NCBI GenBank assembly: GCA_964016885.1
Contig: OZ024746.1
Coordinates: 21,452,001 to 21,516,000, forward strand
Length of the DNA stretch: 64,000 nucleotides
From: Eledone cirrhosa
Lineage: Eukaryota
Direction: 5' to 3'
Under the pieces are notes generated by a model. That model was not told the DNA's origin. It ran no database searches and saw nothing but the letters and a program-made list of their open reading frames with translations. The translations under genes were made by a program, and so were the position numbers. Positions 4,961-57,618 of this stretch are shown piece by piece (within the stretch, counting starts at the first letter, position 1; every line of letters begins with the position of its first letter).

Positions 4961-5003
4961 ATAATATATAAGAATAAAAAAATGGTTAAAAGAGTTCCAT
5001 GTA

Positions 5004-5070
5004 TTTTATTATGCGCATTTCAAAAACAAATATCATCATGCAATAATATTTGTGTTTTCATCAGATAAAA
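5004..5070 (-). ncRNA. Type I hammerhead ribozyme (mirror copy of 5177-5243)
   Basis: Reverse complement of the + strand motif, in the left palindrome arm. Confidence 0.85.
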
Positions 5071-5176
5071 CAGGAAGACATGATATGAAGGTTACAAAAC
5101 ACTTGTGGATAGTGCAGTTTTAAATCAACTGCACTATCCACAAGTGTTTTTTTAACCTTCATATCATGTCTTCCTG

Positions 5177-5243
5177 TTTTATCTGATGAAAACACAAATA
5201 TTATTGCATGATGATATTTGTTTTTGAAATGCGCATAATAAAA
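5177..5243 (+). ncRNA. Type I hammerhead ribozyme, full core
   Basis: Stem I ttttat/ataaaa; CTGATGA at 5183-5189; long stem II aaacacaaatattat-tgcatg-atgatatttgttttt; GAAA at 5226; palindromic stem III atgcgcat; predicted cleavage after AUA at 5237. Confidence 0.85.
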
Positions 5244-5410
5244 TACATGGAACTCTTTTAACCATCTTTTGTTCTTATATATTATGTATACTCCAGTTCT
5301 ACAAACTGTAGAGTGCTTCTTATCCGATATCTGCATTGCTTTATTGTACTACAATAAAACTCACCTCCTACATATATGTATATATATGTATATATATATG
5401 TATATATATG

Positions 5411-12639: not shown

Positions 12640-12675
<36 letters not shown>

Positions 12676-13406
12676 TCTGGTTTCTCCTCACCCCGAACAG
12701 ATAAATCATTTGCGTTTTACTAAAGATTTCCGTGGGAAGGAACAATTTAATGAATTATACTTCAACTCACGTAATGGGTCGATAACCAATAAAATAACAA
12801 AAAACATAATTTTTCTTATCATATATATATTATTTTCTGCTGAAAATATATAGATTGCCATTTTTGGTTTCACGTAATATCAGTTTCATGTAATATATTC
12901 CATACAAATCTAAATTTTTTAAGAGTGTTCAATTTGAAAGATTATATTTTGTAAAACGTGTCCAAAAATATTTCTTGATTTATAAAAAAAACCCTGATAC
13001 TGATTAAATCGTTTTTTAAATTACTATTCAGTTAAACCGATACAATTATAGTCTTATCAGCTGTAAATAATTTACACAACATATTATCGATTTTGTAAGA
13101 CATGAATTATTTAATAGACACTTTATGGGTTAAGACAATGACATGAGCGGTAAATATTAGATATAAATAGTTACGTCAGAGTTCTGCTATTTATGTACGC
13201 TATTTCTGTTGCAAACTTATGTGTTTCGCTGTGGCTAAATTTAAAACGATTTCGATAAAAAACGTTTTAATATTTATGATTCCTCAGAATGCTTTTAGTT
13301 AGTAAGTAACAGATATATTTAGTGATAGGTATATTTACATTAGGGCTGAATAGGGCATGGAGCCAAATGATTTTAAATTTTCTGTTTCTAAGGACCAGAA
13401 ATGTAT

Positions 13407-29145: not shown

Positions 29146-29494
29146 ATCATCATCATTTCATCATCATTTCATTTTACGTCCAATTTTCCCTGCTTGTAAG
29201 GGTGGGACGGGAACTGATTCTGGCATGATTTCTACAGCTGGATGCCCTTCCTAACACCAACCTCATTTACAGTGAGTGTTGGGTGCTTTTTTCCGTGGCG
29301 CCTACACGTCCACTTTACAGTGGATTGATAGGGACCCCAGTCCCTATCATCTCATTTCTACAGCTGAGTAAACTGGAGCAATGTGAAATAAAGTGTCTTG
29401 CTCAGGGAAACATCACATCACCCAGTGTGAGAATTGAACTCACAACCTTTCGATTGCAAGGCCAATGCTCTAACCACTAAGCCATGTGCCTCCA
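29146..29494 (-). mobile_element. tRNA-derived CORE-like SINE with RTE-type 3' end
   Basis: A box (tggcttagtgg), B-box-like gagttcaattc, CORE-like tgagcaagacactttatttcac, and a 3' part matching the RTE 3' UTR with a GAT/GAAAT tail. Confidence 0.85.
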
Positions 29495-34515: not shown

Positions 34516-34540
<25 letters not shown>

Positions 34541-34546
<6 letters not shown>

Positions 34547-34858
34547 ATACTTTGGGAGGGTCATGTTGCCAATAAGAAACACATGCACCAGTTGCTTTCA
34601 CTTCAATTTATTATAATAAATTTATAAATTTATAACTTTCTGATTGGTTGGTTGGTTCCACAACCAGATGATTGTTTATATATTGTCAAAGTTCTTTCGT
34701 CACACATTATGTGACCTCTTCAGTGACTGGGAATTCTTTTCTTTGTTTTTGTGCCTCTCCTTTGTTCTGTCCTACGCCATCTTGTTTTTGTGTGTGTGTC
34801 GGTTTCAACACACGTTTTCAGATAAAGAATCTTGCTAAACAAATTCAGAAACAAAATA
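34541..34858 (-). mobile_element. Penelope-like non-autonomous end fragment in (TA)n; related ends at about 48443-48570 and 63246-63298
   Basis: Shared terminus (ttgttatactt)gggagggtcat...ttgcca at three (TA)n sites; this copy contains the hammerhead at 34685-34727. Confidence 0.55.
34685..34727 (-). ncRNA. Minimal type I hammerhead ribozyme
   Basis: Minus strand reads gtca CTGAAGA g gtcaca-taatg-tgtgac GAAA gaac TT tgac: stem I gtca/tgac, 6-bp stem II with one extra nucleotide, and 2-bp stem III. Confidence 0.65.
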
Positions 34859-40037: not shown

Positions 40038-41080
40038 GTAAGTATATTTTGACATTTGTATTTGTATGTATATATTTGTATACTCATTGCGTTTCTCAGA
40101 CCTTTAGTTTTACATTACTCTGTATTTACTATTGTATTTTGTGGTAACAGCTTTATCTCACATATTCTTGAATCTGCCAAGATTTTGATATTATTTATTT
40201 TGAAAATGATATCTTAACTCTGGTATGAATGGCTGGTTACAGCCAGTTTGAACAGAAAAGGGGGAATTTTGACTGGATATGGCCAGTTTAAATGCTAAAA
40301 TGTTTAAGATGGTTAATAATACAGTTTATAAACATACTTTGTATAGAGCCTATCTTTTGACTTCCAGATGAAATGCACTACATTATATATTTTTAATACA
40401 TTCAGGGTAAAGAATGAGTTTTAAAAATTCCATTATTTTTTATCTATATATATACACATATCTGTGTTCATTTATCTTCTGTAGAAGTATGCATAAGAAA
40501 TGATGATGTAGATGTATATAAAAGTGTGTGGGGCGTGAGTCAGGGGAGCATGTGCATAAGTGTGGTATTTGTTTCTATACATATGTCTTTGTATGTATGC
40601 ATAACTAAATGTGTAAGTGATTGCTACTTATTACATAGAATAATATTCATTCATAGATATATTTTTTTTACACACCTATCAGTATACGCACACCCTAACA
40701 TGTATACATAGATATAGATTAGATATACATATTAAAATAACATACACAACAAAGCAGATAAACTTATATAGATACCCATAGAGTTATACAAATATCTACA
40801 CATACTCGTATATGCATCTAGATGTGCCTTTCACTTCCCACACAAGAAATATTTCCACCTTAAACACACATGCTCATACACTCATGTACATACACATAAA
40901 CATAGGCACTACATACACACAATACTATATGCTCTGAAGAATCAGATTTACTGGTGACATAAATCTCTCCTTCGTTCCAAGTACTTCTGAAATTTTAAGT
41001 CAAAAATGTTCCATGATGTAATCAACTAATAGATTACAGGCTAATTCAATCAAGAGCTTCCTTGAAAGCTAATATCATTC

Positions 41081-41885
41081 ATCATCATCATCATCATCAC
41101 CGTTTTCCATCCGTTCTTCCACGCTAGCATGGGTTAGACGGGTTGTCCTGTTGTGGGCAGTGTCTGGTCGGCTGACCATGCCTTGCTCATACAGGAACTA
41201 ATTTTGGCTTGATTTCTACAGCTGGATGCCCTTCCTAACACCAACCTCATTTACAGTGAGTGCTGGGTGCTTTTTCCGTGGCGCCTACACGTCCACTTTA
41301 CATTGTGGGCTGGGTGCTTTTTTGCCGTGGCACCTCCATGACCACTTTGCAGTGGGAGGGTGTGGGGGCATATTGTCTATATGCTTCAGCTTGTACCCAT
41401 GGGAAGTTGGGTACTCTGTATTACTGCGTGACGCCAGAGGTCGCGGTCGTGTGTAATTGGGTAAGGTCGGCTTTTATCACCTCATCGCAGGTCTTCTTGG
41501 GTCTCCCCACTCCGCGGTTTCCATTGACTTCTAGTGCTCTGCACCTTTTTATGCAGCTGTCATCCTTCATACGCATCACATGTCCATACCAACGCAACCG
41601 CCTCTCCTGCACACAGCATTTGATTCCTCTTATGCTCAGTCTCTCTCTCAATTCATTTATGCTTTGTCATTCGCGTATATTACTATTACACATCCATCGG
41701 AGCATGCAGGCTTCGTTTCTTTCTAATCTACGTAAGTCTTCCACCTTCAGTGCCCAGGTCTCACTACCATGTAACATTGCTGTTCGGAAACACGCATCAT
41801 ACAGTCTGCCTTTCATTTTGAGGGAGAAGCCTTTTGCAGCTAGCAGTGGCAGTAGTTCCCTGAACTTAGTAGTTCCCTGAACTTA
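41081..41885 (-). mobile_element. 5'-truncated RTE LINE
   Basis: RERLSIRGIKCCVQERRLRWYGHVMRMKDDSCIKRC...GRPKKT is homologous to 6088-6666. (GAT)n tail, and a 17-bp duplication agtagttccctgaactt at the truncation point. Confidence 0.9.
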
Positions 41886-42344
41886 CATTGTGAGCATATA
41901 TACAATATATCCTGGTTTTTAGAATAGATACTCTGTATTCCTTGCATGTTGTAAGAGGTTACTAAAAGGGATGGCATCATGAAGAGCATCTGGCTGTAAA
42001 ACATTGTCTCAAATCATCCCGTCCAACCCATGCCAGCATGGGAAAGTAGATGTTATGCTAAGCAGCTGAAGTATATGATAACGTTATATCTGTATATATA
42101 TAGAATAGAAGTGGCTATGTAAATGTGTATATAAATTTACACATTTTTAGTGTAGAGACATGTAAACATGCCATGTATATGTATTTATATTTCATTGATT
42201 TGAAAATATCTGTAGATATACAAATATAATTTTGTCATACACACACACACACCGACAGACATATTTTTCATTTCATTTTTCTTTTCATTTTTACGTCCGC
42301 TTTTCCCTGCTTGCAAGGGTGGGACGGGAACTGATATATATATA

Positions 42345-42810
42345 ATTAAAAAGGAAAAGAAAATGCTGACAAATTTTTTCCAGTGAAAAATAGTTTAATT
42401 AGGAATAAGTATAAATTAGTAATAAGTATTGGTTAGTATTCAGTTTTAGTTTTAAGTTTTTACCGGTTGCGCATTTCTAATGCTTTTCAAAAATAATTTT
42501 GAGATAGAGCGCCCGCGATGTTTGCTCTAATCTGATTAGAGCAAACATCACGAGCAAACATTAGAGCAAACATTAGAGCAAACATTAGAGCAAACATCAC
42601 GAGCGCTCTATTTCAAAATTATTTTTGAAAAGCATTAGAAATGCGCATACGGTAAAATCTTAAAACTAAAACTGAATACTAATCAATACTTATTACTAAT
42701 TTATACTTATTCCTAATTAAACTATTTTTCACTGGGAAAAATTTTTCAGCATTTTCTTTTCCTTTTTACTAATATATCACAACTCATGTGTCACACCTCT
42801 ATTTTTTAAT
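42345..42810 (+). mobile_element. Fold-back element (about 185-bp arms plus tail) with internal 13-bp tandem repeat; Penelope-like end
   Basis: Left arm 42349-42530 pairs with the right arm ending about 42767. The centre has a repeated ttagagcaaacat unit, and GAAATGCGCATA (hammerhead 3' half) is at 42638-42649. Confidence 0.6.
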
Positions 42811-42829
42811 ATATATATATATATCTATC

Positions 42830-43158
42830 TATCTAAGGCGGGTAAAATTCCCGAGATCCATGGACGAGTTCTCTCCAGCGGTCTCTGTCCCTCATTATCA
42901 CTGCCATATCCTGCATCTCCAACAGACCAGTGTCTGTCCTTAGGGCATCAACATATGTTAACCTTGGTCTTCCTCTTCTAGTGTGTCCATGTAGGGGCTC
43001 CCAAAGGAGCACTGAGTGCAATGTCAACTCTGGATGTCGGTGAGCATGTCCAGCCAACCTCAGTCTCCTCTGTGTCACTTTTGAGCTGACTTTTGGGATG
43101 CTCCCATACAGCTCTGAGTTTTTCATCCTCAGTGTATACTGATTAATGTTCAGAGCCA
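42830..43158 (-). mobile_element. 3' fragment of a different RTE/RTE-X-like LINE
   Basis: QRRLRLAGHAHRHPE...LLWEPLHGHTRRGRPRLTYVDALRTDTGL; the stop is followed directly by a tagatag/(TA)n tail. Confidence 0.8.
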
Positions 43159-43830
43159 TAATATATAAGATCAAAAGATGGTTAAAAGAGTTCCATGTAT
43201 TTTATTATGCGCATTTCAAAAACAAATATCATCATGCAATAACACTTGTGTTTTCATCAGATAAAATAGGAAGACATGATATGAAGGTTAAAAACACTTG
43301 TGGATAGTGCAGTTTTAAATCAACATATGAAAAGTAGTTTTAGATTGATGTGTGATATTGGGGAAACATTTTTTTTTTTTAGGGGGGAGGGGGAGGTTGG
43401 AAAGGATGAAAAAGAGGAGGCGATGAGAGTAAAAAGTGGAGGGGAGGAGTATAATTAGGAAGGATGAGATAGGACGAGAGATGGGTGATAGAGAGAGATA
43501 GCTTTTATAACTGAGAAAAATATATTGTTTTACATAGAGAGGTTGAAAAACCATTGGAAGATAATGTATAAATTAAAAGAATTTGAAAATTAACGAAGAG
43601 AAAAATAATGTAAAGTTAAGGTTTGTATATTGAAGGGTTTAATAATATGTGCAATGAAAAGAAATTGTTAATATGCATTAAGAATAATATTTAAGGGTTT
43701 AATAATATGTGCGATGGAAAGAAAATTTTGATATGTATTATTAAAAAAAACAAAAGTAATGTAAGTAAAGATATATTGTGAGATGAGCATGAATAAGTTA
43801 GATGAAAGTGAGAAAAAAATAATAATATAT
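43158..43830 (-). mobile_element. Non-folded copy of the 4961-5285 Penelope-like end plus presumed upstream UTR
   Basis: 43160-43324 matches 4961-5129 and then continues into different purine-rich (+ strand) sequence instead of folding back. The right boundary is approximate. Confidence 0.6.
43200..43266 (-). ncRNA. Type I hammerhead ribozyme, same family as 5177-5243
   Basis: Identical core, stem I and stem III. Two A>G changes in stem II convert A-U pairs to G-U pairs. Confidence 0.85.
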
Positions 43831-43879
43831 ATATATATATATAATATATAATAATAATATATATATATAGATATATATA

Positions 43880-43958
43880 TACAAGGTGTCCAAAAGAATG
43901 TATGCATACTTTGATTAGAAAGGTGTTGAAGTGTGTATACATTTTTGGTGGGACACCT

Positions 43959-43962
<4 letters not shown>
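43880..43962. mobile_element. Tc1/mariner-type mini-MITE (TIR-only hairpin) in (TA)n
   Basis: tacaaggtgtcc...tgtat / atacattttt...ggacaccttgta inverted termini with TA flanks. Confidence 0.7.
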
Positions 43963-44007
<45 letters not shown>

Positions 44008-44264
44008 GAGTGTGTTTAAAGAGCAGCGAGTGAAGTTTGAAACAGAAGAATAAGGCTTTGCTGTAACATTTGACTGAATGAAATAGTCTAATAATGGGGT
44101 GTATAAACCCACTGAATGGAAAAAGATGGTTATCAGCACAGCTTTTTCCATTCAGTGGGTTTATACACTGCATTATGAGATTAGATTATTTAGTCACAAT
44201 GTTATGGTGAAGCCTTATATTTCTATTTCAATATACATGCATATATAGATATATATATATATAT

Positions 44265-44336
<72 letters not shown>

Positions 44337-45571
44337 TTTGTTAATAATTAATTTGACATGGTGGAACTTTTCAAAAACCAGAGTTAATGCAGTGAATAGC
44401 TTTTTTCAACTATTGCATACAATAATGTATGAATAAAACTTGGAAATTAAGAATATACACTTTACAAGACTCCATTTCTGAAGAGAAAGGATGGGAACAA
44501 AAAATGTTATGGGGGGCTGCACTTCCTCCTGTGACTAAGCTATTAAAAATAAGAGCATCTTATTGAGGAAACTAGCAAACATAGTAAAAGCATGGTAAAA
44601 TCAGTGTGTAATCTTTTGCGTGCAATATTATGTTCAATTCTCTTGTAGAATGGACTTAACTTGGATACACTCCAAGAGAATGCATTCTTTGAAGGTGCTC
44701 ATATAAGCAAATTGGCTATAAGACTCACTCAAAAAGGAAGGTAGAATAATGATATATTGAAAGTGGGTTAATGATGTTGGCTTCAGTAGAAGTGGTATAC
44801 AGGAAAGGCCAATAATTGCAGATTGTTGCACAGGAAATACATACTAACAAAAGCTTTTATTTGGATGCAATCGGAAATGTTTATGTATGCTCATGAGTAG
44901 CTTCAGAAGATAAGAACATTTAACTTTTTCTGCAAAAGTTAGGGTTCTGGCAACCACAAAATACTTAACAATTTTACATCATTCATTTACTAAGTGGGGT
45001 GGAGCTCATCAAATCAGACCAAGGAAACAATGTTTCAATTGATCTTTGCATTGCTAATGCTATCTACTTGTCTCAACTCCTGGCAGAAAAAGCAACAGGA
45101 AATAAAATGTCTTACTCAAGGACATAATACATTGCCCAGTCTGGGAATAAAACAGACAACCTCACAATTGTAAATCCAATTCTCTAACCACTAAGCCTTC
45201 ACAATGTTAAAGAAATCTATTTCATAATTTTCAGGAACCAGAATTACTACATTGATAGCATTTCCATTAAACATATTAACCTTAGACACATTACAACTCA
45301 TATATAAATAAATAGAAATATATATATATATATATTTATTTATTTTTGACATCCTATTACCTCACTCTAATGCACATATTCACACACAGACAAATACACA
45401 GACAAATATTTATACATAAATTCTAAAGAGACTACATCATTCTCCAATAAGTGGCATATCTATATATTAATTTTTTTACCATTCTGAGAATCTAGACCTG
45501 ATGCTATTAATTTAGCTGATGTATCTTTTAGAATAAATTAAGGAAGGCTGTTTTTTCATTCACATCTGCAG

Positions 45572-45775
45572 TATACAGGGGTCAACAGAAAAGTTCAAGG
45601 CTGACCAAGATACTCTCATGGAATGACAAAATGAGGTTTATTTTTCAATGTAGTCTCTAGAAAGAAACAATGCAGTTATTAATAAGAAAAGTTAAAATTA
45701 ATGCTTGCAAGATTTCACAGTACTAACATCACCCCTTCATACTCAGCCTATGGAATTTTCAGCTGATACTCTTAA
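45572..45775. mobile_element. Mariner-derived MITE; second copy at about 50275-50457
   Basis: tacaggggtcaacagaaaagttcaaggctgac ... cagcctatggaattttcagctga inverted termini, with internal sequence shared with the 50275 copy. Confidence 0.7.
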
Positions 45776-46011
45776 GTTCAAACCCACAAATAATTAAATT
45801 TTTTTCTGCTTCCATTTACCTCTGAGGGGGAATGTACTAGGCTACATGTTTTTATTAATGGCAGTAAAAGAGACAGAAAATTCTTTAACATAAATAAATT
45901 AGCAGAAATTTTAAAATGAGATCTTTGTGTTTCCTCCAAAATATTTTTTTTATTCATATTTCTTTTATTACATCTTTTTTCTATTTTTATGTTTCACTCA
46001 CTACAAATATA

Positions 46012-46043
46012 TTATTGTTGTTGTTGTTGCTGCTGCAGTTTAT

Positions 46044-46088
<45 letters not shown>

Positions 46089-46218
46089 ATGGTGATTGGG
46101 ATGGTGGTTAAGGTGATAGTAGTAATGGTGGTGGTGATAGTAGTAGTAGCAGTAGTAGTAGTAATTGCAGCAGCAACAGTAGTAGTAGTTGTATTGTGCT
46201 GGTTGATGGTGATATTGT
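46012..46218. repeat. (GTA/GTG/GTT)n trinucleotide tract
   Basis: Direct inspection. Confidence 0.9.
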
Positions 46219-46504
46219 AAGAATACTTTCACTTATAGTAAAATGAAGAATTGAATCCAAATCATGTATTGGAGCTTAGGTGCACTTTTGTTTTGGCAAC
46301 GGAACAAAATGATAGCAGAGCATTGTTATCAAGTAATGGGATATTCATATTTACCTCACATTGCATTGTGTTTGCTATCTATTAGTTGCATATGAGTGTA
46401 CATTAGTATTTTATGTATTCTTATCTGTACCTATATATATATATATTATGGAATACTGTTGGCTTTTTGCTACAATATTTTCTATACCTTTCATTTATAT
46501 ATAT

Positions 46505-46553
46505 GTTTCAGAAGATCCCGTTAAGGGTGAAAGCAGCGATTCTTTGCTTAAAC
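46505..46553 (+). ncRNA. Degenerate hammerhead ribozyme (U4>A)
   Basis: gttt CAGAAGA t-ccc-gttaa-ggg-t GAAA gcag-cgattct-ttgc TT aaac: all three stems form, but the core has CAGA instead of CTGA. Confidence 0.55.
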
Positions 46554-46573
46554 TTTAATCTGTTATTTTAATA

Positions 46574-46650
<77 letters not shown>

Positions 46651-46832
46651 ATAAAGTATATATCCCTACACGCAAAAAACGTATAGGGACACATGTATTA
46701 TCCAACCATATGCCAATGTGGTTCTATGGCAGGTTAATAAATTAACGAGCCAGAACATATATAATCAAGGTTTAGCAAATAAGAAAAAGTTTCAAAATAA
46801 ATTTCACAAAATTCACTCTACTTACTATGGTT

Positions 46833-46917
46833 ACCTTTACCGAAACGGTTTCGAGTCTCAAAAATATGGATAGTCCTTGCGGGTCTCCATTGAAAAGATA
46901 AACTCTCGTCAGAAGGT
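46833..46917 (-). ncRNA. Type I hammerhead ribozyme (mirror copy of 47361-47445)
   Basis: Reverse complement of the + strand motif, in the left arm. Confidence 0.88.
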
Positions 46918-47360
46918 TCTTTTCACTCGGAGAATATAAAATTCCCGAGTTCAAATTACGAACTGGCGCTATTCAAAATTGTTCCCAAGATGAGAATGAA
47001 TGATGTGGAAGCAATTCTGTCCAGTGTCGTGTGCAAAGATAGAAGGCAGAGGCAGGGAGGTCAATATACCACCACATTGGCATATGGTTGGATAATACAT
47101 GTGTCCCTATACGTTTTTTGCCTGTAGGGATATATACTTTATTATTATTAATCTCTCCCTGGTCGAGATAAAATTTTGTTGTTTTGGCTGCTGCTATTTA
47201 TAGTGGTGGTAGATTGACCTCTCTGCCTCTGCCTTCTATCTTTGCACACGGCACTGGACAGAATTGCTTCCACATCATTCATTCTCATCTCAGGAACAAT
47301 TTTGAATAGCGCCAATTCGTAATTCGAACTTGGGAATTTTATATTCTCCGAGTGAAAAGA

Positions 47361-47445
47361 ACCTTCTGACGAGAGTTTATCTTTTCAATGGAGACCCGCA
47401 AGGACTATCCATATTTTTGAGACTCGAAACCGTTTCGGTAAAGGT
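47361..47445 (+). ncRNA. Type I hammerhead ribozyme, full core, sense to the host gene
   Basis: acctt CTGACGA gagttt...gagactc GAAA ccg-ttt-cgg TA aaggt. Extended stem II is capped by tgga..cc-GCAA-gg..tcca (GNRA loop). Predicted cleavage after GUA at 47440. Confidence 0.88.
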
Positions 47446-47512
47446 AACCATAGTAAGTCCAGTGAATTTTTTGAAATTTATTTTGAAACTTTTTCTTATT
47501 TGCTAAACCTTG

Positions 47513-49391
<1,879 letters not shown>

Positions 49392-51844
49392 TTTCTGTTC
49401 ATCTTTATTAGCTCCATTGGTATTAAAGATGTTATTCAGCTGGCCCTTAAAATGAAGAAGCACACATACACATATGCATTGCCACACATTGACCGCATAG
49501 TCATACATATATACATAGACACACAAAAGCCAATAAATAAATATTTGTAATAAAATAAACATACAAAAATAACAAACAAAAGAAGCATTTATTATAGACT
49601 TATGGTATTGAATAATATGTTTCCAACTGAATGTAGATATAGTTGAGGTATGGAACAGTGTATGTATGTATATCTATGTGTGTGTGTGTGTATATGTATG
49701 AATGTATCTCTGTATATATATATATCTGTCTATCTATTTATCTATGTATATATGAAGTTATGTATGTATGTGTGTTTGTAAGTATGTTTGTATGTATGTT
49801 TGTATGCATATGTGTTTGTATGTAAGCAGGTAGGTATGTATGTCGGTGTGGTAGATAGGTACTTTGTTTTTTGGCTACTGTATAGTATACACTTAGGGTA
49901 GGCTACATTGCTTTGTACTTTAAAAGAATTGTAGAAATCTCACAGTAAGCTATTTGAATTGTTGCTTTTTCTTGTTGTTTAGCCCAAGGTCAGCAGCAAT
50001 CAATCAGACCTATTGTTAAAAGTGCTCAAGTTATGATTATTTTATCTTTTTGTATATCAAGAACTGCAGTATATGTTTCTTTATTCAAGATGGTACTGTT
50101 TAATATGAAAGAGATTTGTCTGCTCGTCCTAGCAGATTATTTGTTTTACAAAAGCTTCCTCATTGGATTGTTGCATTCTAGATAATTGATTTAAATGTGG
50201 TAGAGTGGGCTTTTTAGGGACATTTGGTTTTTAATCCTAACACATTGAGCAACTACAAACAAAGTTATTAAGGTTACAGTGGTCAACTGAGAAGTTCATA
50301 GGCTGACCAAGTTAGTCTCATGGAATGATCAAATGAGATTTATTTTTCAACATAGTCCCTGGAAAAATCATTAGTTATTAATAAGAAGAGTTAAAATCAA
50401 TGCATGCAAGATTTTACAGCTCTAGCTTCACTCCTTCATAGTCAGCCTACCCTTGTATATCCAGTTGCAATGCATTAAATACATCCAATATGACTGGGCC
50501 TTGATAAATGTCCATAAGCAATAATTTCTTTGTAACCATTTCTATCAGTATCATATGAAATTGAGCCAGGTATGATTGAATGAAACTATTTCACATCCCT
50601 TGTAATTACTTAAGGCAGTGAATTGGCCGAGTCTTTAGAAGGTTGAATAGAATGCTTTGTGATATTCATTCTAGCTCTCTCTTCTCTGAATTCAAATCTT
50701 GCTGAGGTCAACTTTGCCTTTCATCTTTTCGAGGTCGATAAAAAAAATGTACCAGTTTGGTATTGGGGTTGATTCTTTCTCTATATCGCTTTCTCACTTT
50801 CATTCTCTCACTCTCTATCCTTCTGTGGAAGAAATCTGCTGTACTCAGGCCTGGTGATAGTTTGGCTCTGCCAGGCTGAAAATTCCTAAGAAATGCTGTA
50901 TGACAATATGACACCCCAATGACTCCCTTGGGAATTACTGGGCCATAGAATACCATATACTTAACTTGAAGAAAGATAAATATCACAAACACTTTATTTT
51001 ATTTCCCCTTCTTCATTATTCATTTAGCTATTGTACCATAATGTTTCATAAGCTATTAGCGCCTTGCAAATGTTTCTCTTTATGAACTCCAAAGCTCCGA
51101 TTACTAACGGCTAAAGGAAATATCTGCTCATACAACAGTGATTTGGTTTCTCTGTGTTACTTATTTACATATTTGGTAAAGTGAACAAACTTTTAAAGCA
51201 TTGCTCTTTATTTGGTAGACTGACTCTAAAACCAATTTACTCAATCAGGTGTAACACTTGATTCTATATACTTAATTATTCTATGTCAATCTTTCAGCTC
51301 TATAATGCAACATTTGTCAATTATTCACTTCATCCACTATTTACTATGCTAACTGTACCTCTTTATAGTATATACATACATAGCATTGAATATCACCAGT
51401 GGTTAGATATTGGTAATTGACTTCTTAATGTGGTTACCTAATTCTCTTGTGGAATCCATGTACAACCCAGCTGAGATATACTAAAAGTTGGCTAATAATA
51501 AACGTTCAGTTCACCTTTTTGTGCACTATATATTGTAGTCATGTGTGTTCAGCACTCACTAATCCATTATTTCCTGTATTCCAGCTCTTAAATGTTTTCT
51601 TCGTTCTAATACTAAACAATACTTAATAAAACTAGATGCTACTATCTATGTACATATTCAGCCATTTTACCATAGGTGCAGGGATCAGACAGTGCATAGA
51701 GTATGCACATCAGAAAGAGGGTAATTCATATATCCTTCAAAATTCAGTATATCATACAAGATGATAGTGTATGATTTGAGGGAGATTTAGCTGCTATTCC
51801 TCACATGTTGAGCAACTGTATAGGGGTTCCTCAATAGTTATGTG

Positions 51845-52090
51845 GTTAGAATGTTTCAGGAAAGAATCACTGGACAGATTTTATGGGCAAAACCAACTGG
51901 TAGGAGACCCAGGGTTAGAACCTGAGCAAAATGACCGGATAACATCCCTGAGCTTTGCTGGTCATGCTTGGGGATCAAACTTGATCAATTAGAAATGGTT
52001 GTTTCTGACAGGACCCACTGGAATGTGTGTTTGAGGACTCTGCCCCAATTACCCTCCCCAGGACTACGTGGGTGGAAAAGAAGAAAAACA
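51845..52090 (+). mobile_element. Old RTE-like LINE 3' fragment; related copy at about 36490-36730
   Basis: Shared tggacagattttatgggcaaaac...cccaggg...ggataacatcc, translating to QILWAKPTGRRPR-like C-terminal residues. Confidence 0.55.
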
Positions 52091-54168
52091 AAAGAAGAAA
52101 ACAGCAAATCATTTCAGTCGTCACATATTGAACTAATTATATATGGGTATCCATAGTTATGTGGACTTCTGATTAGGTGGTCAAACTCCTGATTATAATA
52201 TTGTAGCTTTGATTCTTAAACTAGATGGCACATTGTGTCTTTAAGTAAGGCACTTCATTTCAGATTGTCCCACATTCACTCAACTGAAAATTTGTACTAA
52301 CAAATGCAGCAACTGAGAGTTAATCTTATGATGGATTGGCACCCCATCCAGGGAAAAGTATTCTACTTTCAGTTGCTTAGCATCACATGAAACAAGGGTA
52401 GACTTTGGTTTGATGAGCCTCTAGCCTCAAAGAAGTCTTTTGATTCACTATAGTCTTTTGATTCACTACTACAAAATAATACATTTAATGACAACATTAA
52501 CAATATACTCTGTATCTGATTGTCTTTTGTCAAGAAATATTATTATTTTTAATTTAAAGGCATTAATTGATATTCTATGCAAGTATTCGCTAAGTAGACA
52601 TTTATTGTTCTTCATTTTCAAACAATAGATTCACTAGCTAACAATAATATTATATTGAAACATCACTAAGGGATTGAAAGAAAGGTTCCTCCTTCTATAA
52701 ACCAAGCAATTAACAGTATGTATGAAACACAAGTTCATAGAGTGTGCACATCAGAAATAAAATAGTTAAATGTTTGGTTAAAGTAAAGTATTCACTTTTA
52801 ATTAATTTTGAACAACGAATATGTCTTATTTGTGACAGAAAATAGAGTATATATTCATTGAAATTAACTTATTTTATAATACTGGTAGGTGGTAAATTGG
52901 CAGTCATTAGGGGATCATACTACATTCATTTTAATTAAGGCTCTCTGCACTCTGAGTGCAAATCTCACCAAGGTCAACTTCATTTCACATCTCCTTTGGA
53001 TCGATAATTAAAATGCCTGTTAAGTACTTGAAATGATTCTTCTTCAGTCTGTCTGTTTGTCTTATTCTCTGGAAGCAATCAGCTATAAGACTTGGAGAAT
53101 GATAGGGTCCACTAGGTTTTGATGCTCAAAACCCGCCATATGTAACAAGAATACTCCTATGACAGCATCAGAAGTTAAAGGTTGAAGATAAGTTTATTAC
53201 TGATAATTATTCTATTGAGACTCGTGGAGGAGATATGATGTTGATTCTGACATATTCTCAACTTAGAATAATAAGGTACCAACCTCGATAGAATTTTTTT
53301 TCCAATGTTATGTCTTATCTGTATCTACTACACTTAGTATGTGATAATGTTATTTTGGCCAATTAAATTAACCCCTAATGTATTGTAGGTTCTTATCTCA
53401 GAAAATGTAAAAGAGAAACCTCATTTCTAGATTTGAATTCAGAATAATAAAATAGAGAGATGAAATTAAATAGTTGTTATCGCCTAAAGTGTTTTCTATC
53501 ATAGCTGTGAGGCCATGAAAGTTTTGTGAGTAAATGTGGTTGTCAGGAACTGTATGGAAGTCTGTTGGAGAGATTGTTCCTGTTCTTGAGAGGTTACCTT
53601 GAGAGGTAACCTTAACCTGAATGGCTTAACACCATTACCTGATCTTTCCAAAGACAATATAATAATGTTAAAAACCTTTGATTCAAATCTCCAGTCTGTG
53701 GATAAAATGGTAGTGTCTTTCATCCCCTGGCTAAATGACACAAGTATTGACATAACATTCATCTTTATTGCAAAGGACAACCTCTCTAAAGTTGATAACA
53801 CAATTAAATGCATCTACATTTCTCTGTAACGTTGATGGTGATAGGAAGGGTATCCTGCCATAGAAACCATGCAAACATTAAATACTGGATTAAGACATGG
53901 ACTCTACTACCTACACCAAAAGCTACCCATTTAGAGGGGATGCACAGTAAATTTGAATAAGAGGTGATACAGGGTAGAATGGACTCTTTAGTCATCCTTG
54001 CATAGGACAACATCTCTAGTGCTGGTGGTATGAGAAAATATACTTTTGTCATACGTTAGAAAGTTGGCCAGTTTTCTCTGTTGCTATGTATTTAAGATGA
54101 TGGCATAATTACGCACAGACAAACACAAATATTATATACATATATATGTATGTATATGTGTGTGTGTA

Positions 54169-54214
<46 letters not shown>

Positions 54215-54421
54215 TGCACACACACACATTAGTTTATGAAGGTCACCAAATTCATTTCAGCAAGCTCTGGCCACCACTCATTTACTCAATGAGCTAATGA
54301 GGTAATATATATGCTAATGAACTAATATATATGTAAAACTCAACAAGGAAAACAACACAGGAGAACAATACTGTACAAGGATGATATATAATAGTTTAGC
54401 ACTTGATATAATAGGAAACTT

Positions 54422-54457
54422 TCTTAACGTTTTGGACATTAACCCTTCATCAGAAGA
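54422..54457 (-). ncRNA. Degenerate minimal hammerhead (G12>A) in a Penelope-like end remnant
   Basis: Minus strand reads tctt CTGATGA a-ggg-ttaatg-tcc AAAA cg TT aaga. This fits the CTGATGAAGGG...CCGAAACGTT minimal form with CpG decay. Confidence 0.6.
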
Positions 54458-56059
54458 TAGAATGAGAGATAGAAGAAATAGAAGAATAGACAAAAATAAG
54501 AAAAGGAAGAGTAGGAAACAAAATGTTCACATGAAGAAAGTATATGTGCATTTTAGTCATAGCTCATTTCCTTTTTCTTTTGTGTTTCATTTCTATTTTT
54601 CTAATATTTTTATCAAGATGAAATTTGTATTCTAGTAATGCTTTCTTTGATAAATCACATATATCCTTAGTGACAGATACTTAACAATTCTTTAGCGCTA
54701 AATCCTTCTTTATTCCTGTTTCTACAATTTTGCTTTCTAGATTATATTCATACGTTGTTTGTATAAATTCAGCAAACTATTGACTTTGATTTCACTTTAT
54801 ATCTCACATTAGATTCTACATTACTAATCACCCAGTGTAAATGAGAAATTTCTTTTATTTGTAATCTTTATTTTCCATCTTAGCAATGGTATGATTATAA
54901 TTCATCCTAGGAAAGTTTACTTAAGTTTCCTGTGTGCTCCCCTGAATTTTATATTTTCAATATTTATTCTGGTATGTTATCTATATATTTATATGAGTAT
55001 ATAAGTTTTATGGAAGAAGTTAATTATGATATTTTTGTTACTATGTTTCTAATGGAATGCACTGCCTATGGTTTTCAAATATTTCTGAACATAATCAAGA
55101 ATTTGGAGGGATAAATTTTAAATAATTTTCTAATTATCAAACTGGTGTTTGGAATATAATGTACCAATGTTTTTTTCCCAAAATGATGGTGGAAAGTTAT
55201 GTTAATACGTTTCTAATAAAATTAACTGCTTATGATTTTCAAATATTTCTGAATATAATCTAGAATTTTGAGGGATTTAGTAAAATAACTTTCTTATTAT
55301 CAAACTAGTGTTTGAAGCAAGTTCATAAGGTTGGGTTAAAAATGCTTCAGTAATTGTTCCAGCTCACTGCACTCAGAGTTCAAATCCTGCTGTGGTTAGT
55401 TTTGCCTTTCATCCTTATGGGGTTAATAAAATAAACTACCAGTAGCATACTGGGGTCGATTTAATCCACTTTCTCCTCCACCAAAATTGTTGGCCTTGTG
55501 CCAAATTCAGAAACCATTATTAAGCTGGTCTTTGGAATGTATCTTAGTAATGGTTTTTACATAAAATTATGATGGAAGGTTTTTAGATAAATACAAACAC
55601 TTTAAATTGACAGTTTTATATCGTAGAACTAGGAACAGCTTCAGAAAATTTGGCATCAAATGTGTTAAATATTTTTTAAAAACTAAGTAAAAACAGTTTA
55701 TCAAAAATGTGGACCATAATATTTTCAGAAAATAACTATAAATATATTTTTTTAGCTTGAACATTTTTGGAAGGAAGAAAAATTCAAATAACCTTGTGAA
55801 ATAGAAAAGGGTAGAGAAACTGAATGAAGTTAGTGCAATAAATTGACAGATGTAACACATAGCATCAAACTAAATACATTACAGTCAAATGACAATGATG
55901 ATGATGATACATACACACACACATATATATATATATGTGTATGTGTATTATCTTCATTTTCATCTTTCTATCAAAATGAAACTACTTAGCATCCATGCAA
56001 TCCTCAAATGTATTGATCAATGTCCAATGTCCTAGTTTCATCCATAATTATTCTAATAT

Positions 56060-56094
56060 ATGTGCATATATATATATATATACACACACACACA

Positions 56095-56144
<50 letters not shown>

Positions 56145-56640
56145 CACATATATACACATATATATATACACACACATATATATATACACATATATATATA
56201 TATATATACACATATATATACACACATATATATATATATATATATACACACACATATATATATATATATACACACACATATATATATATATACACACACA
56301 TATATATATACACATATATATATATATATACACATATATATACACACATATATATATATATATATACACACATATATACACATATATATATACACACATA
56401 TATATATATACACATATATATATATATATATACACATATATATACACACATATATATATATATATATACACACACATATATATATATATACACACACATA
56501 TATATATATATATACACACACATATATATATATACACACATATATATATATATACACACACATGTATACACATATATACACACACATATATATATACACA
56601 CACACACATATATATATACACATATATACACACACATATA

Positions 56641-56676
<36 letters not shown>
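56060..56676. repeat. Compound (TA)n/(CA)n microsatellite
   Basis: Direct inspection. Confidence 0.95.
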
Positions 56677-56678
<2 letters not shown>

Positions 56679-57111
56679 CTCAGAGAGGAGATGATGAAGG
56701 AATGCGGTGAGGGGAGAGATGTTGTGCTGAAAAGACTCAGCCAACACATGAAAGCATGGAAAAATGATGATGATATATATATAATATAGCCACACTCTAC
56801 TATCTCAGGTATTGCATACTCTATTGAATAATGGTCTAACTAGTTTAAAACTGGTTTAATCCTGATATATATATATGTATATGGGGGGGGGGGGTATATG
56901 TGTGTATGCGGAATTTTACTAAAGGCCCTGATATGACTATTTCTTACAAATGGACATATGGTTTTCATTTTATCCATGATAGTAATTAGGTAAAGTTATT
57001 TCACCATAATTACTTTCATATACTTCTCTTACACACGCTAATGCCAGCAACTTAGTTGATGAGTAAATTTGAAAATTATATTTCAGTTCTGTTGACAAAT
57101 AATATTTTCAA

Positions 57112-57398
57112 TCAGTCCACTTCAACCACTGTCCACATAAACACTATTTTTAACCACTGAACTCTTCAACCACTGTACCATATAAAGACCAGTTTACAAT
57201 CACTGTCCTTTTAAAGACCAGTATATAACCACTGTCTGCATAAAGACCAGTTTTAACCACTCTCCACATAAAGACCAGTTTTTAGCCACTGTCCACTTCG
57301 ACCAGTTTTCAACCACTGCCCTTTTAAAGACCAATTTTTAACCATTGTCAACATGAAGAGAAATTTTCAATCACTGTTCCCATAAACACCTGTCTACC
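57112..57398. repeat. Diverged tandem repeat of about 29-30 bp, about 9 copies
   Basis: Recurrent aaccactgtccacataaagaccagtttt-like units about 220 bp upstream of the Ig exon. Confidence 0.8.
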
Positions 57399-57618
57399 AC
57401 TAATATATTCGACATTCAATTCTCAGGCCACCTACATTTTGTGTTATAGCAACAGCTACAATTTTATTATTTAATTTGTGTTTATATTTGAAATTCTTCA
57501 TTCCTTTTATCACATCAATGAATAAAATATTGACTGCTATGAAGAATGTTAAAGTTGTTTTCACACCTACACAACAGAAGAAAAACATTATAGAATGTTC
57601 TTTATATTGTTTTGTTAG

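What the first reader, a model, noticed from the sequence alone, without database searches (positions are those of the whole stretch)
46757..47519. Full-core sense-strand hammerhead in the FSTL intron, preceded by its own antisense copy
Seen: 47361-47445 has a complete core, 5-bp stem I, 4-bp stem III with a UUU loop and a long stem II with a GCAA tetraloop. It is on the transcribed strand between the EF-hand and Ig exons. A near-perfect 310-nt complement lies just upstream and would be transcribed first. Inference: the pre-mRNA can fold either as an active ribozyme that cuts the intron at 47440 or as a long duplex that masks it. ADAR editing, which is extensive in coleoids, could shift that balance.
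Basis: partly seen in the sequence, partly recalled or inferred. Interest (0 to 1): 0.75.

Follow-up and report, generated by a model that had tools for sequence, protein, structure and literature searches.

The report
Mirror-armed retrozyme insertion in an intron
This is one of hundreds of copies of a protein-free jumping repeat carrying a predicted self-cutting RNA motif; its mirror-image arm is the family's usual insertion footprint and would likely keep the motif shut in the gene's transcript, so it is probably an ordinary insertion, not a gene-control switch.

Summary
The hammerhead (47361-47445, +) and the 319-nt, 97% inverted arm are real and lie in a 17.6-kb intron of a + strand Kazal/EF-hand/Ig gene. 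They are not a feature of this gene. The stretch is one insertion of a ~486-nt non-coding tandem unit with 628 exact hammerhead-core matches in this genome. Head-to-head arms occur at 10 of 27 loci picked only by the core. In 19 of 21 two-armed loci, one arm ends at a fixed site and the other about 108 nt further on, both in (TA)n. That is the published Penelope-like (PLE) footprint, and ORF-bearing PLEs in this genome show it too. Both arms carry the ribozyme pointing outward, so transcription of either strand gives 'antisense first, sense second'. The duplex is predicted to beat the ribozyme fold by ~136-153 kcal/mol and to zip up first; simulated editing of 80% of adenosines leaves 52 kcal/mol or more. 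Each arm carries five private mutations. Verdict: a new member of the metazoan non-LTR retrozymes, probably PLE-mobilised and silent here; the switch reading is unsupported. Cleavage and expression are untested. The scan noted this footprint before on other DNA of this genome.

The parts
46579..46648 (.). Left half of the (TA)n target microsatellite
46649..47075 (-). Left arm: 427-nt circularly permuted piece of the ~486-nt unit, ribozyme sense pointing leftward, ending at the family's second fixed end (site 2)
46649..46756 (-). 108-nt extension ('tail') present on this arm only: 34-nt unit junction plus 74 nt that complement 47071-47144
46833..46917 (-). Second hammerhead copy, identical to 47361-47445; antisense in the host pre-mRNA
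47071..47075 (.). 5-nt overlap (microhomology) where the two 5'-truncated arms meet
47071..47521 (+). Right arm: 451 nt of the unit, ending at the family's first fixed end (site 1), 81 nt 3' of the predicted cut
47361..47445 (+). Type I hammerhead motif; predicted cut after A47440; stem III strand is near-palindromic (could form a double hammerhead)
47353..47387 (+). 8-bp pairing 47353-47360 / 47380-47387: competing helix or possible pseudoknot; no covariation
47522..47549 (.). Right half of the (TA)n target microsatellite
40038..57618 (+). Host intron (17,581 nt, phase 1) between the EF-hand exon and the first Ig-like exon

Best explanation
This is one two-armed insertion of a multi-copy, non-coding ~486-nt hammerhead-motif repeat (a non-LTR retrozyme), likely pasted into a (TA)n microsatellite by a Penelope-type reverse transcriptase/endonuclease, and predicted to sit silenced as a long hairpin in the host pre-mRNA. 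Shown: repeat family, tandem unit, two fixed 3' ends, TA targets, head-to-head arms, ORF-bearing PLEs with the same footprint in the genome. Inferred: a multimeric or circular RNA of the unit was copied from both ends of a DNA break, one cDNA starting at site 1 and the other at site 2, and the two were joined at their 5' ends through a 5-nt microhomology. The ribozyme's job is processing the element's own multimeric RNA, possibly as a double hammerhead. In the intron the second arm zips onto the first as it is made, so the motif rarely folds; the hairpin is a likely ADAR substrate, as any long intronic duplex is, but editing does not free the ribozyme.
For: 2606 first-look candidates and best copies 93-95% identical. 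628 exact core matches, reversed-pattern control 0. Among the 100 matches listed: 5 head-to-head pairs, 0 tail-to-tail pairs, 10 same-strand pairs of which 9 are 468-486 nt apart. Cut-to-cut unit 486 nt, 36% GC, longest ORF 52 aa. 10 of 27 core-picked loci are two-armed, 5 of 27 with the ribozyme region on both arms. Site 1 + site 2 in 14 of 16 two-armed loci and in 5 of 5 further loci fetched because they were two-armed. 83 of 85 arm ends run into TA-type repeats, read by eye. RT + C-terminal GIY-YIG elements with type I hammerhead-like motifs and two fixed ends in TA occur in the genome. Arm differences split 5 / 5 / 1 polymorphic. Core intact in 41 of 55 copies picked by overall likeness, core change rate 2.6% against 1.8% outside: no sign of selection after insertion. 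Duplex energies. Papers: PMC4209133, PMC8557442, PMC11167929, PMC7229834, 10.64898/2026.07.22.740005.
Against: No autonomous PLE sharing this unit's sequence was found among 50 GIY-YIG-anchored stretches; the likeness to the L106 family is confined to the ribozyme's 3' half and the wider alignment is no better than shuffles (152 of 500). The arms are identical over 127 nt that cover the whole ribozyme (chance about 0.03-0.04, post hoc), which could be gene conversion or selection for pairing. Rfam does not score the motif. The 108-nt extension is longer than the 30-40 nt tail of PMC8557442. The site-1 excess in the first 20 loci is partly forced by the query. All folding results are nearest-neighbour predictions without proteins, Mg2+ or pseudoknots.
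Confidence: 0.85

Rival explanations
1. Host-adopted switch: ribozyme fold and duplex compete in the FSTL pre-mRNA and ADAR editing tunes intron cleavage.
For: Motif is intact, on the transcribed strand, with the antisense arm upstream. 0 differences in the 85-nt motif against 11 in the other 234 nt. Precedent for an intronic ribozyme that tunes its mRNA: CPEB3 (PMC10919898, abstract read).
Against: Gap of 136-153 kcal/mol; 52 or more after 80% simulated editing; the chance that six core adenosines escape is 0.12 at 30% editing. Same layout at 5 of 85 loci with both cores exact and at 4961-5352 in this window. Arms are young, about 1.6% each from their template. Pooled over 6 other two-armed loci the motif differs at 16 of 506 sites against 59 of 1196 outside, only slightly less. 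The next exon is 10 kb away.
Confidence: 0.04
2. The repeat is the orphaned pseudo-LTR of a lost or unfound autonomous PLE, a dead-on-arrival fragment rather than an independent retrozyme with its own RNA cycle.
For: Footprint equals that of ORF-bearing PLEs; distance from cut site to site 1 is about 80 nt in both this unit and L106; the 3' half of the ribozyme resembles that of L106.
Against: In the 69 loci mapped, upstream of a unit lies another piece of the same unit or unrelated flank. PLE ORF fragments were found in 4 element loci; the 2 read base by base are separate neighbouring insertions. Subfamilies differ by a compensatory change in stem II (8 of 24 rows, probably one event).
Confidence: 0.08
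3. The inverted arm arose after insertion (fold-back DNA duplication) or is an assembly artefact.
For: Both arms share private variants rare or absent in the family (47208, 47394 and a 2-nt deletion in stem II).
Against: The left arm holds 34 nt of unit junction that the right arm lacks and ends at the family's site 2; the same pair of ends recurs at 19 of 21 loci; the arms differ at 11 sites. Shared variants are expected from one template.
Confidence: 0.03

Closest known systems
Metazoan non-LTR retrozymes (Cervera and de la Pena 2020, PMC7229834, passages and part 3 of 6 read; Li, Clavereau and Pollet 2026, 10.64898/2026.07.22.740005, parts 1-3 of 5 read)
   Same: Non-coding, low-GC tandem unit with one type I hammerhead; many dispersed monomers and short multimers; coexists with hammerhead-bearing PLEs; about 43% of Xenopus copies lie in introns, so an intronic copy is ordinary.
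   Different: Unit of 486 nt is above the 170-400 nt of the 2020 paper though inside the 51-972 bp of the preprint; stem II is unusually long; circular RNA and cleavage are untested; the parts read do not describe two-armed insertions with paired fixed ends.
Canonical C-terminal-endonuclease Penelope-like elements (PMC8557442, passages; PMC4209133, parts 1-2 of 4; PMC11167929, parts 1-2 of 4)
   Same: 5' truncation, partial tandems, inverted 5'-truncated copy, tail at one end only, two RT start sites, AT-rich targets; short stem I and long stem II; hammerhead pairs 100-700 bp apart on opposite strands are already reported in PMC4209133.
   Different: No ORF; extension of 108 nt rather than 30-40; stem III has 4 bp, more than in minimal PLE hammerheads; no cognate autonomous element identified.
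Domesticated intronic ribozymes: CPEB3 (PMC10919898, abstract) and amniote HH9/HH10 (recalled; title seen in a reference list, paper not held)
   Same: Self-cleaving motif on the sense strand of an intron.
   Different: Those are single-copy and conserved; this one is a young member of a repeat family, with no sign of selection on the core and a full antisense copy beside it.

Membership tests
Type I hammerhead ribozyme | Core CUGANGA, GAAA, NUH in canonical order with stems I-III, stem I open | tested here: met
   stem I 5 bp (4 bp in 14 of 24 aligned rows)
Type I hammerhead ribozyme | Match to an Rfam hammerhead model | tested here: not met
   no hit at gathering score or E up to 10; the long stem II is the likely reason (inference)
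Type I hammerhead ribozyme | Covariation in stems | tested here: inconclusive
   2 of 30 pairs change on both sides, both in inner stem II; most rows were picked by exact core match, so invariance there is by construction
Type I hammerhead ribozyme | Stem I - loop II tertiary contact | tested here: inconclusive
   an 8-bp pairing could be a pseudoknot but shows no compensatory change and one pair is broken in 13 of 24 rows
Type I hammerhead ribozyme | Self-cleavage | not testable with these tools
   predicted fold is not the minimum even alone: 2.1 kcal/mol above it for the 85-mer, 11.8 for 47340-47470 at 37 C
Non-LTR retrozyme | Non-coding tandem unit of a few hundred nt with one type I hammerhead per unit | tested here: met
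   486-nt unit, longest ORF 52 aa; 9 tandem pairs at 468-486 nt among 100 listed matches
Non-LTR retrozyme | High dispersed copy number | tested here: met
   628 exact core matches; 1788-2606 first-look candidates
Non-LTR retrozyme | Expressed as circular RNA | not testable with these tools
   no RNA run was available
Penelope-like element, insertion footprint | 5' truncation, partial tandem, inverted copy, one-sided tail, AT-rich or microsatellite target | tested here: met
Penelope-like element, autonomous | RT + GIY-YIG ORF | tested here: not met
   no ORF in the unit; tblastn of 5 PLE ORFs against the window finds nothing
Penelope-like element, non-autonomous partner | Sequence shared with the pLTR of an autonomous family | tested here: inconclusive
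   only the ribozyme's 3' half resembles L106; 50 stretches examined out of 10597 GIY-YIG candidates
Domesticated intronic ribozyme | Single-copy, conserved at the orthologous intron across species | tested here: inconclusive
   single copy not met; conservation across species could not be tested, no relatives held

The most novel reading that the evidence does not exclude
Two-ended Penelope-type insertion gives a ribozyme retroelement its own off-switch: copies with the ribozyme on both arms mask themselves on either strand and so survive in introns, while unmasked sense copies are purged. Arm number and orientation of the intronic copies would then be a genome-wide, in vivo read-out of whether these hammerheads cut host pre-mRNA, and each survivor would be a ready-made long ADAR substrate. 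Four of the five hammerhead-like insertions seen in the window besides or including this one are antisense or two-armed and so is the fifth, but a single-armed sense copy of another family lies in a later intron of the same gene, so this is open.
Probability: 0.2. Interest if true: 0.55.

Novelty: new member of a known kind. Interest (0 to 1): 0.2.

Why it matters
For the FSTL-like gene, probably little: it is a passenger. The family has some value as material: hundreds of young copies with two sharply fixed ends support the standing proposal that animal retrozymes are mobilised by Penelope-type enzymes, and give a template for testing two-ended priming in vitro. It is also a caution for genome scans: a sense hammerhead with an upstream antisense copy is produced automatically by this insertion mechanism.

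Tried and rejected
Rfam: no hammerhead hit. RNA evidence: no RNA holder listed; three runs of unrecorded kind, contigs only, one sample, were laid and gave nothing on expression, ends or editing. Autonomous partner: a recalled Pfam accession was not in the library; GIY-YIG search gave 150 scored of 10597 candidates, of which 30 loci and 19 wider stretches plus one element locus were examined with no shared sequence; a pattern for short-stem-II relatives gave 11 matches, all deletion or divergent copies of the same family; end similarity to the L082/L108 family was weak (98 and 32 of 1000 shuffles as good). Editing scars in genomic copies: A>G 5.8 against T>C 4.3 per 1000, C>T and G>A about 11-12; none of the 10 polarised arm changes is A>G in ribozyme sense. 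Pseudoknot: no covariation. Earlier scan notes on scrambled (Naiad) hammerheads concern another kind; no look-alike of this sequence and nothing near this place was on record. Paper searches; the listings showed no paper on this family or on an antisense-masked intronic hammerhead, but most subscription papers are not searched and I opened no supplements, where a Repbase-type family description could sit. Rows set aside before counts: duplicate loci L021, L030, L087, L089, L095, L101 (L089 was added back once to make 27 core-picked loci).

Full report
Observation. On + there is ACCUU (47361-65), CUGACGA, a stem II opening with 6 bp, GAAA (47426-29), a 4-bp stem III with a UUU loop, GUA with the predicted cut after A47440, and AAGGU. 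A strict descriptor run over both strands of the window finds only this motif and an identical copy at 46833-46917 on minus. The arms 46757-47075 and 47203-47521 match at 308 of 319 nt. Rfam gives no hammerhead hit. The host gene runs on +: Kazal and EF-hand exons by Pfam, Ig exons beyond the window, and a 17,581-nt intron 40038-57618 with matching phase. The name FSTL4/5 is recalled from the domain order; the organism was not checked.

Real extent. The left arm continues to 46649. Read on minus it gives the 319 nt shared with the right arm, then 34 nt absent from the right arm, then 74 nt equal to 47071-47144. The two arms overlap by 5 nt at 47071-47075 and each ends in (TA)n. Both carry the ribozyme pointing outward. 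A transcript of either strand therefore meets an antisense copy first and a sense copy second, so the orientation relative to the gene carries no information.

It is a repeat family. A 363-nt query gave 2606 first-look candidates, the 40 scored being 93-95% identical apart from the window itself. An exact core pattern matches 628 times, the reversed control 0 times. Copies form head-to-tail partial tandems with a 486-nt cut-to-cut unit, 36% GC, longest ORF 52 aa. The 34 nt unique to the left arm are the unit junction. The 100 matches listed (of 628) fall in 85 loci: 5 head-to-head pairs, no tail-to-tail pair, 10 same-strand pairs, 9 of them 468-486 nt apart.

The antisense arm is the insertion footprint. 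Of 27 distinct loci picked only by the core pattern, 10 are two-armed and 5 have the ribozyme region on both arms. Over 69 mapped loci, 16 are two-armed, the window included; in 14 one arm ends at site 1 (47521 equivalent) and the other at site 2 (about 108 nt further round the unit). The two exceptions have one arm ending elsewhere. Five more loci fetched because they were two-armed all show site 1 + site 2. By eye 83 of 85 arm ends run into TA-type repeats, and 81 of 85 fall at site 1 or 2 by script; the first 20 loci are biased to site 1 by the query. PMC8557442 (passages) describes partial tandems, an inverted 5'-truncated copy, a tail at one end only and microsatellite bias for PLEs. PMC11167929 (parts 1-2) ties the tail to two RT start sites. 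PMC4209133 (parts 1-2) already reports hammerhead pairs 100-700 bp apart on opposite strands. ORF-bearing RT + GIY-YIG elements are abundant here, carry type I hammerhead-like motifs, and one family has two fixed ends in TA with opposite arms using different ends. I did not find the cognate autonomous element: 50 stretches examined, no shared sequence beyond a likeness in the ribozyme's 3' half.

No sign that the host keeps it. The 11 arm differences split into 5 derived in each arm and 1 polymorphic in the family, about 1.6% per arm. Among 55 copies picked by overall likeness, 41 have an intact core, and core sites change no less often than others (2.6% against 1.8-2.1%), so an intact core is ordinary. 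One result points the other way: no difference falls in a 127-nt run covering the ribozyme (chance 0.03-0.04, post hoc), and locus L086 shows the same. Pooled over six other two-armed loci the motif differs at 3.2% against 4.9% outside; tandem pairs show 3.5% against 3.6%. Several of these loci were picked by exact core match. Gene conversion or chance suffices; selection is not excluded.

Behaviour in the pre-mRNA, all predicted. Alone, the hammerhead fold lies 2.1 kcal/mol above the minimum for the 85-mer and 11.8 above it for 47340-47470 at 37 C, because 47353-60 pairs with 47380-87; such models omit tertiary energy, and that helix could be a pseudoknot, though it shows no covariation. The stem III strand is near-palindromic: two copies pair at -9.9 kcal/mol (-14.3 for the family's commoner variant) against -2.0 for the hairpin, which fits a double hammerhead in tandem RNA as proposed in PMC4209133 and PMC7229834. 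This locus offers one sense copy per strand. With the left arm the gap is 136 kcal/mol at 37 C and 153 at 25 C. Folding of growing transcripts puts 56 of 58 right-arm bases on the left arm by 47260 and 165 of 170 by 47372, before the 3' half of the core exists; at 47230 none of 28 was yet paired. Changing 10-80% of arm adenosines to G or to a non-pairing base, three runs each, with core and stems spared, leaves 52-154 kcal/mol. Editing is likely on such a duplex (general knowledge of ADAR) but would not open it, and would tend to hit core adenosines.

Internal controls. An unrelated family gives the same layout at 4961-5352, with hammerhead-like motifs at 5064 (-) and 5183 (+) and a one-sided tail. 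The end of an ORF-bearing PLE family is inverted at 34799. A 440-nt palindrome with a degenerate hammerhead-like motif on both arms lies at 42338-42777 in the same intron. A single-armed sense motif of yet another family lies in a later intron of the gene.

Comparison and novelty. It works like a non-autonomous PLE-mobilised element and meets the testable sequence features of metazoan non-LTR retrozymes (PMC7229834; 10.64898/2026.07.22.740005, where about 43% of Xenopus copies are intronic and 1 of 9 tested dimers cleaved). It is not an autonomous PLE. It differs from CPEB3 (PMC10919898, abstract) and HH9/HH10 (recalled) in being a young multi-copy insertion. Earlier notes of this scan reached the same reading for other hammerhead families in this genome; they are AI notes and I count them as leads, not support. 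My reading was written down before that look-up.

Verdict. Observation confirmed; masking likely; switch unsupported. New member of a known kind, interest 0.2. Cleavage, expression, editing and conservation across species were not testable here.

Noticed in passing
window 4961-5352 and 43157-43324: Unrelated two-armed element in (TA)n with hammerhead-like motifs at 5064 (-) and 5183 (+) and a ~65-nt tail on the + arm; a third, single copy at 43157-43324 (-) in the same intron as the finding.
   Followed up: partly
window 34539-34856: 3' end of an ORF-bearing PLE family (as in L108 and L082) with a clean inversion at 34799: minimal hammerhead-like motif at 34723 (-), tail on the + arm, TA on both sides.
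   Followed up: partly
window 42338-42777: 440-nt palindrome with short central repeats; each arm has a hammerhead-like motif akin to the L106 family (U3-A8 core) but with GCAA or GCAT in place of GAAA.
   Followed up: no
L106:2773-8815 (G000:C1): Near full-length PLE with a 938-aa RT + GIY-YIG frame, 1.07-kb pseudo-LTRs and a U3-A8 hammerhead variant; relatives L107, L113, L117, L119 show two fixed ends about 65 nt apart in (TA)n.
   Followed up: partly
L138:1314 (+): Single-armed sense hammerhead-like motif of another PLE family in a later intron of the same host gene; a 78% alike antisense relative lies 8 kb away.
   Followed up: partly
window 47548-49391: Large TA-rich inverted repeat (about 80% over 858 nt, inner part 93% over 262 nt) directly right of the element.
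   Followed up: no
window 12672-12790 (+) and 29427-29484 (-): Rfam matches to U5 snRNA (49.9 bits, degenerate 3' end, likely a pseudogene) and to a partial tRNA (37.4 bits, possibly a SINE head).
   Followed up: no
window 47441-47458 (+): Two splice-donor-like words (GGTAAC, AGTAAGT) lie just 3' of the predicted cut and are kept in most copies; PLEs are known to hold introns near their hammerheads.
   Followed up: no
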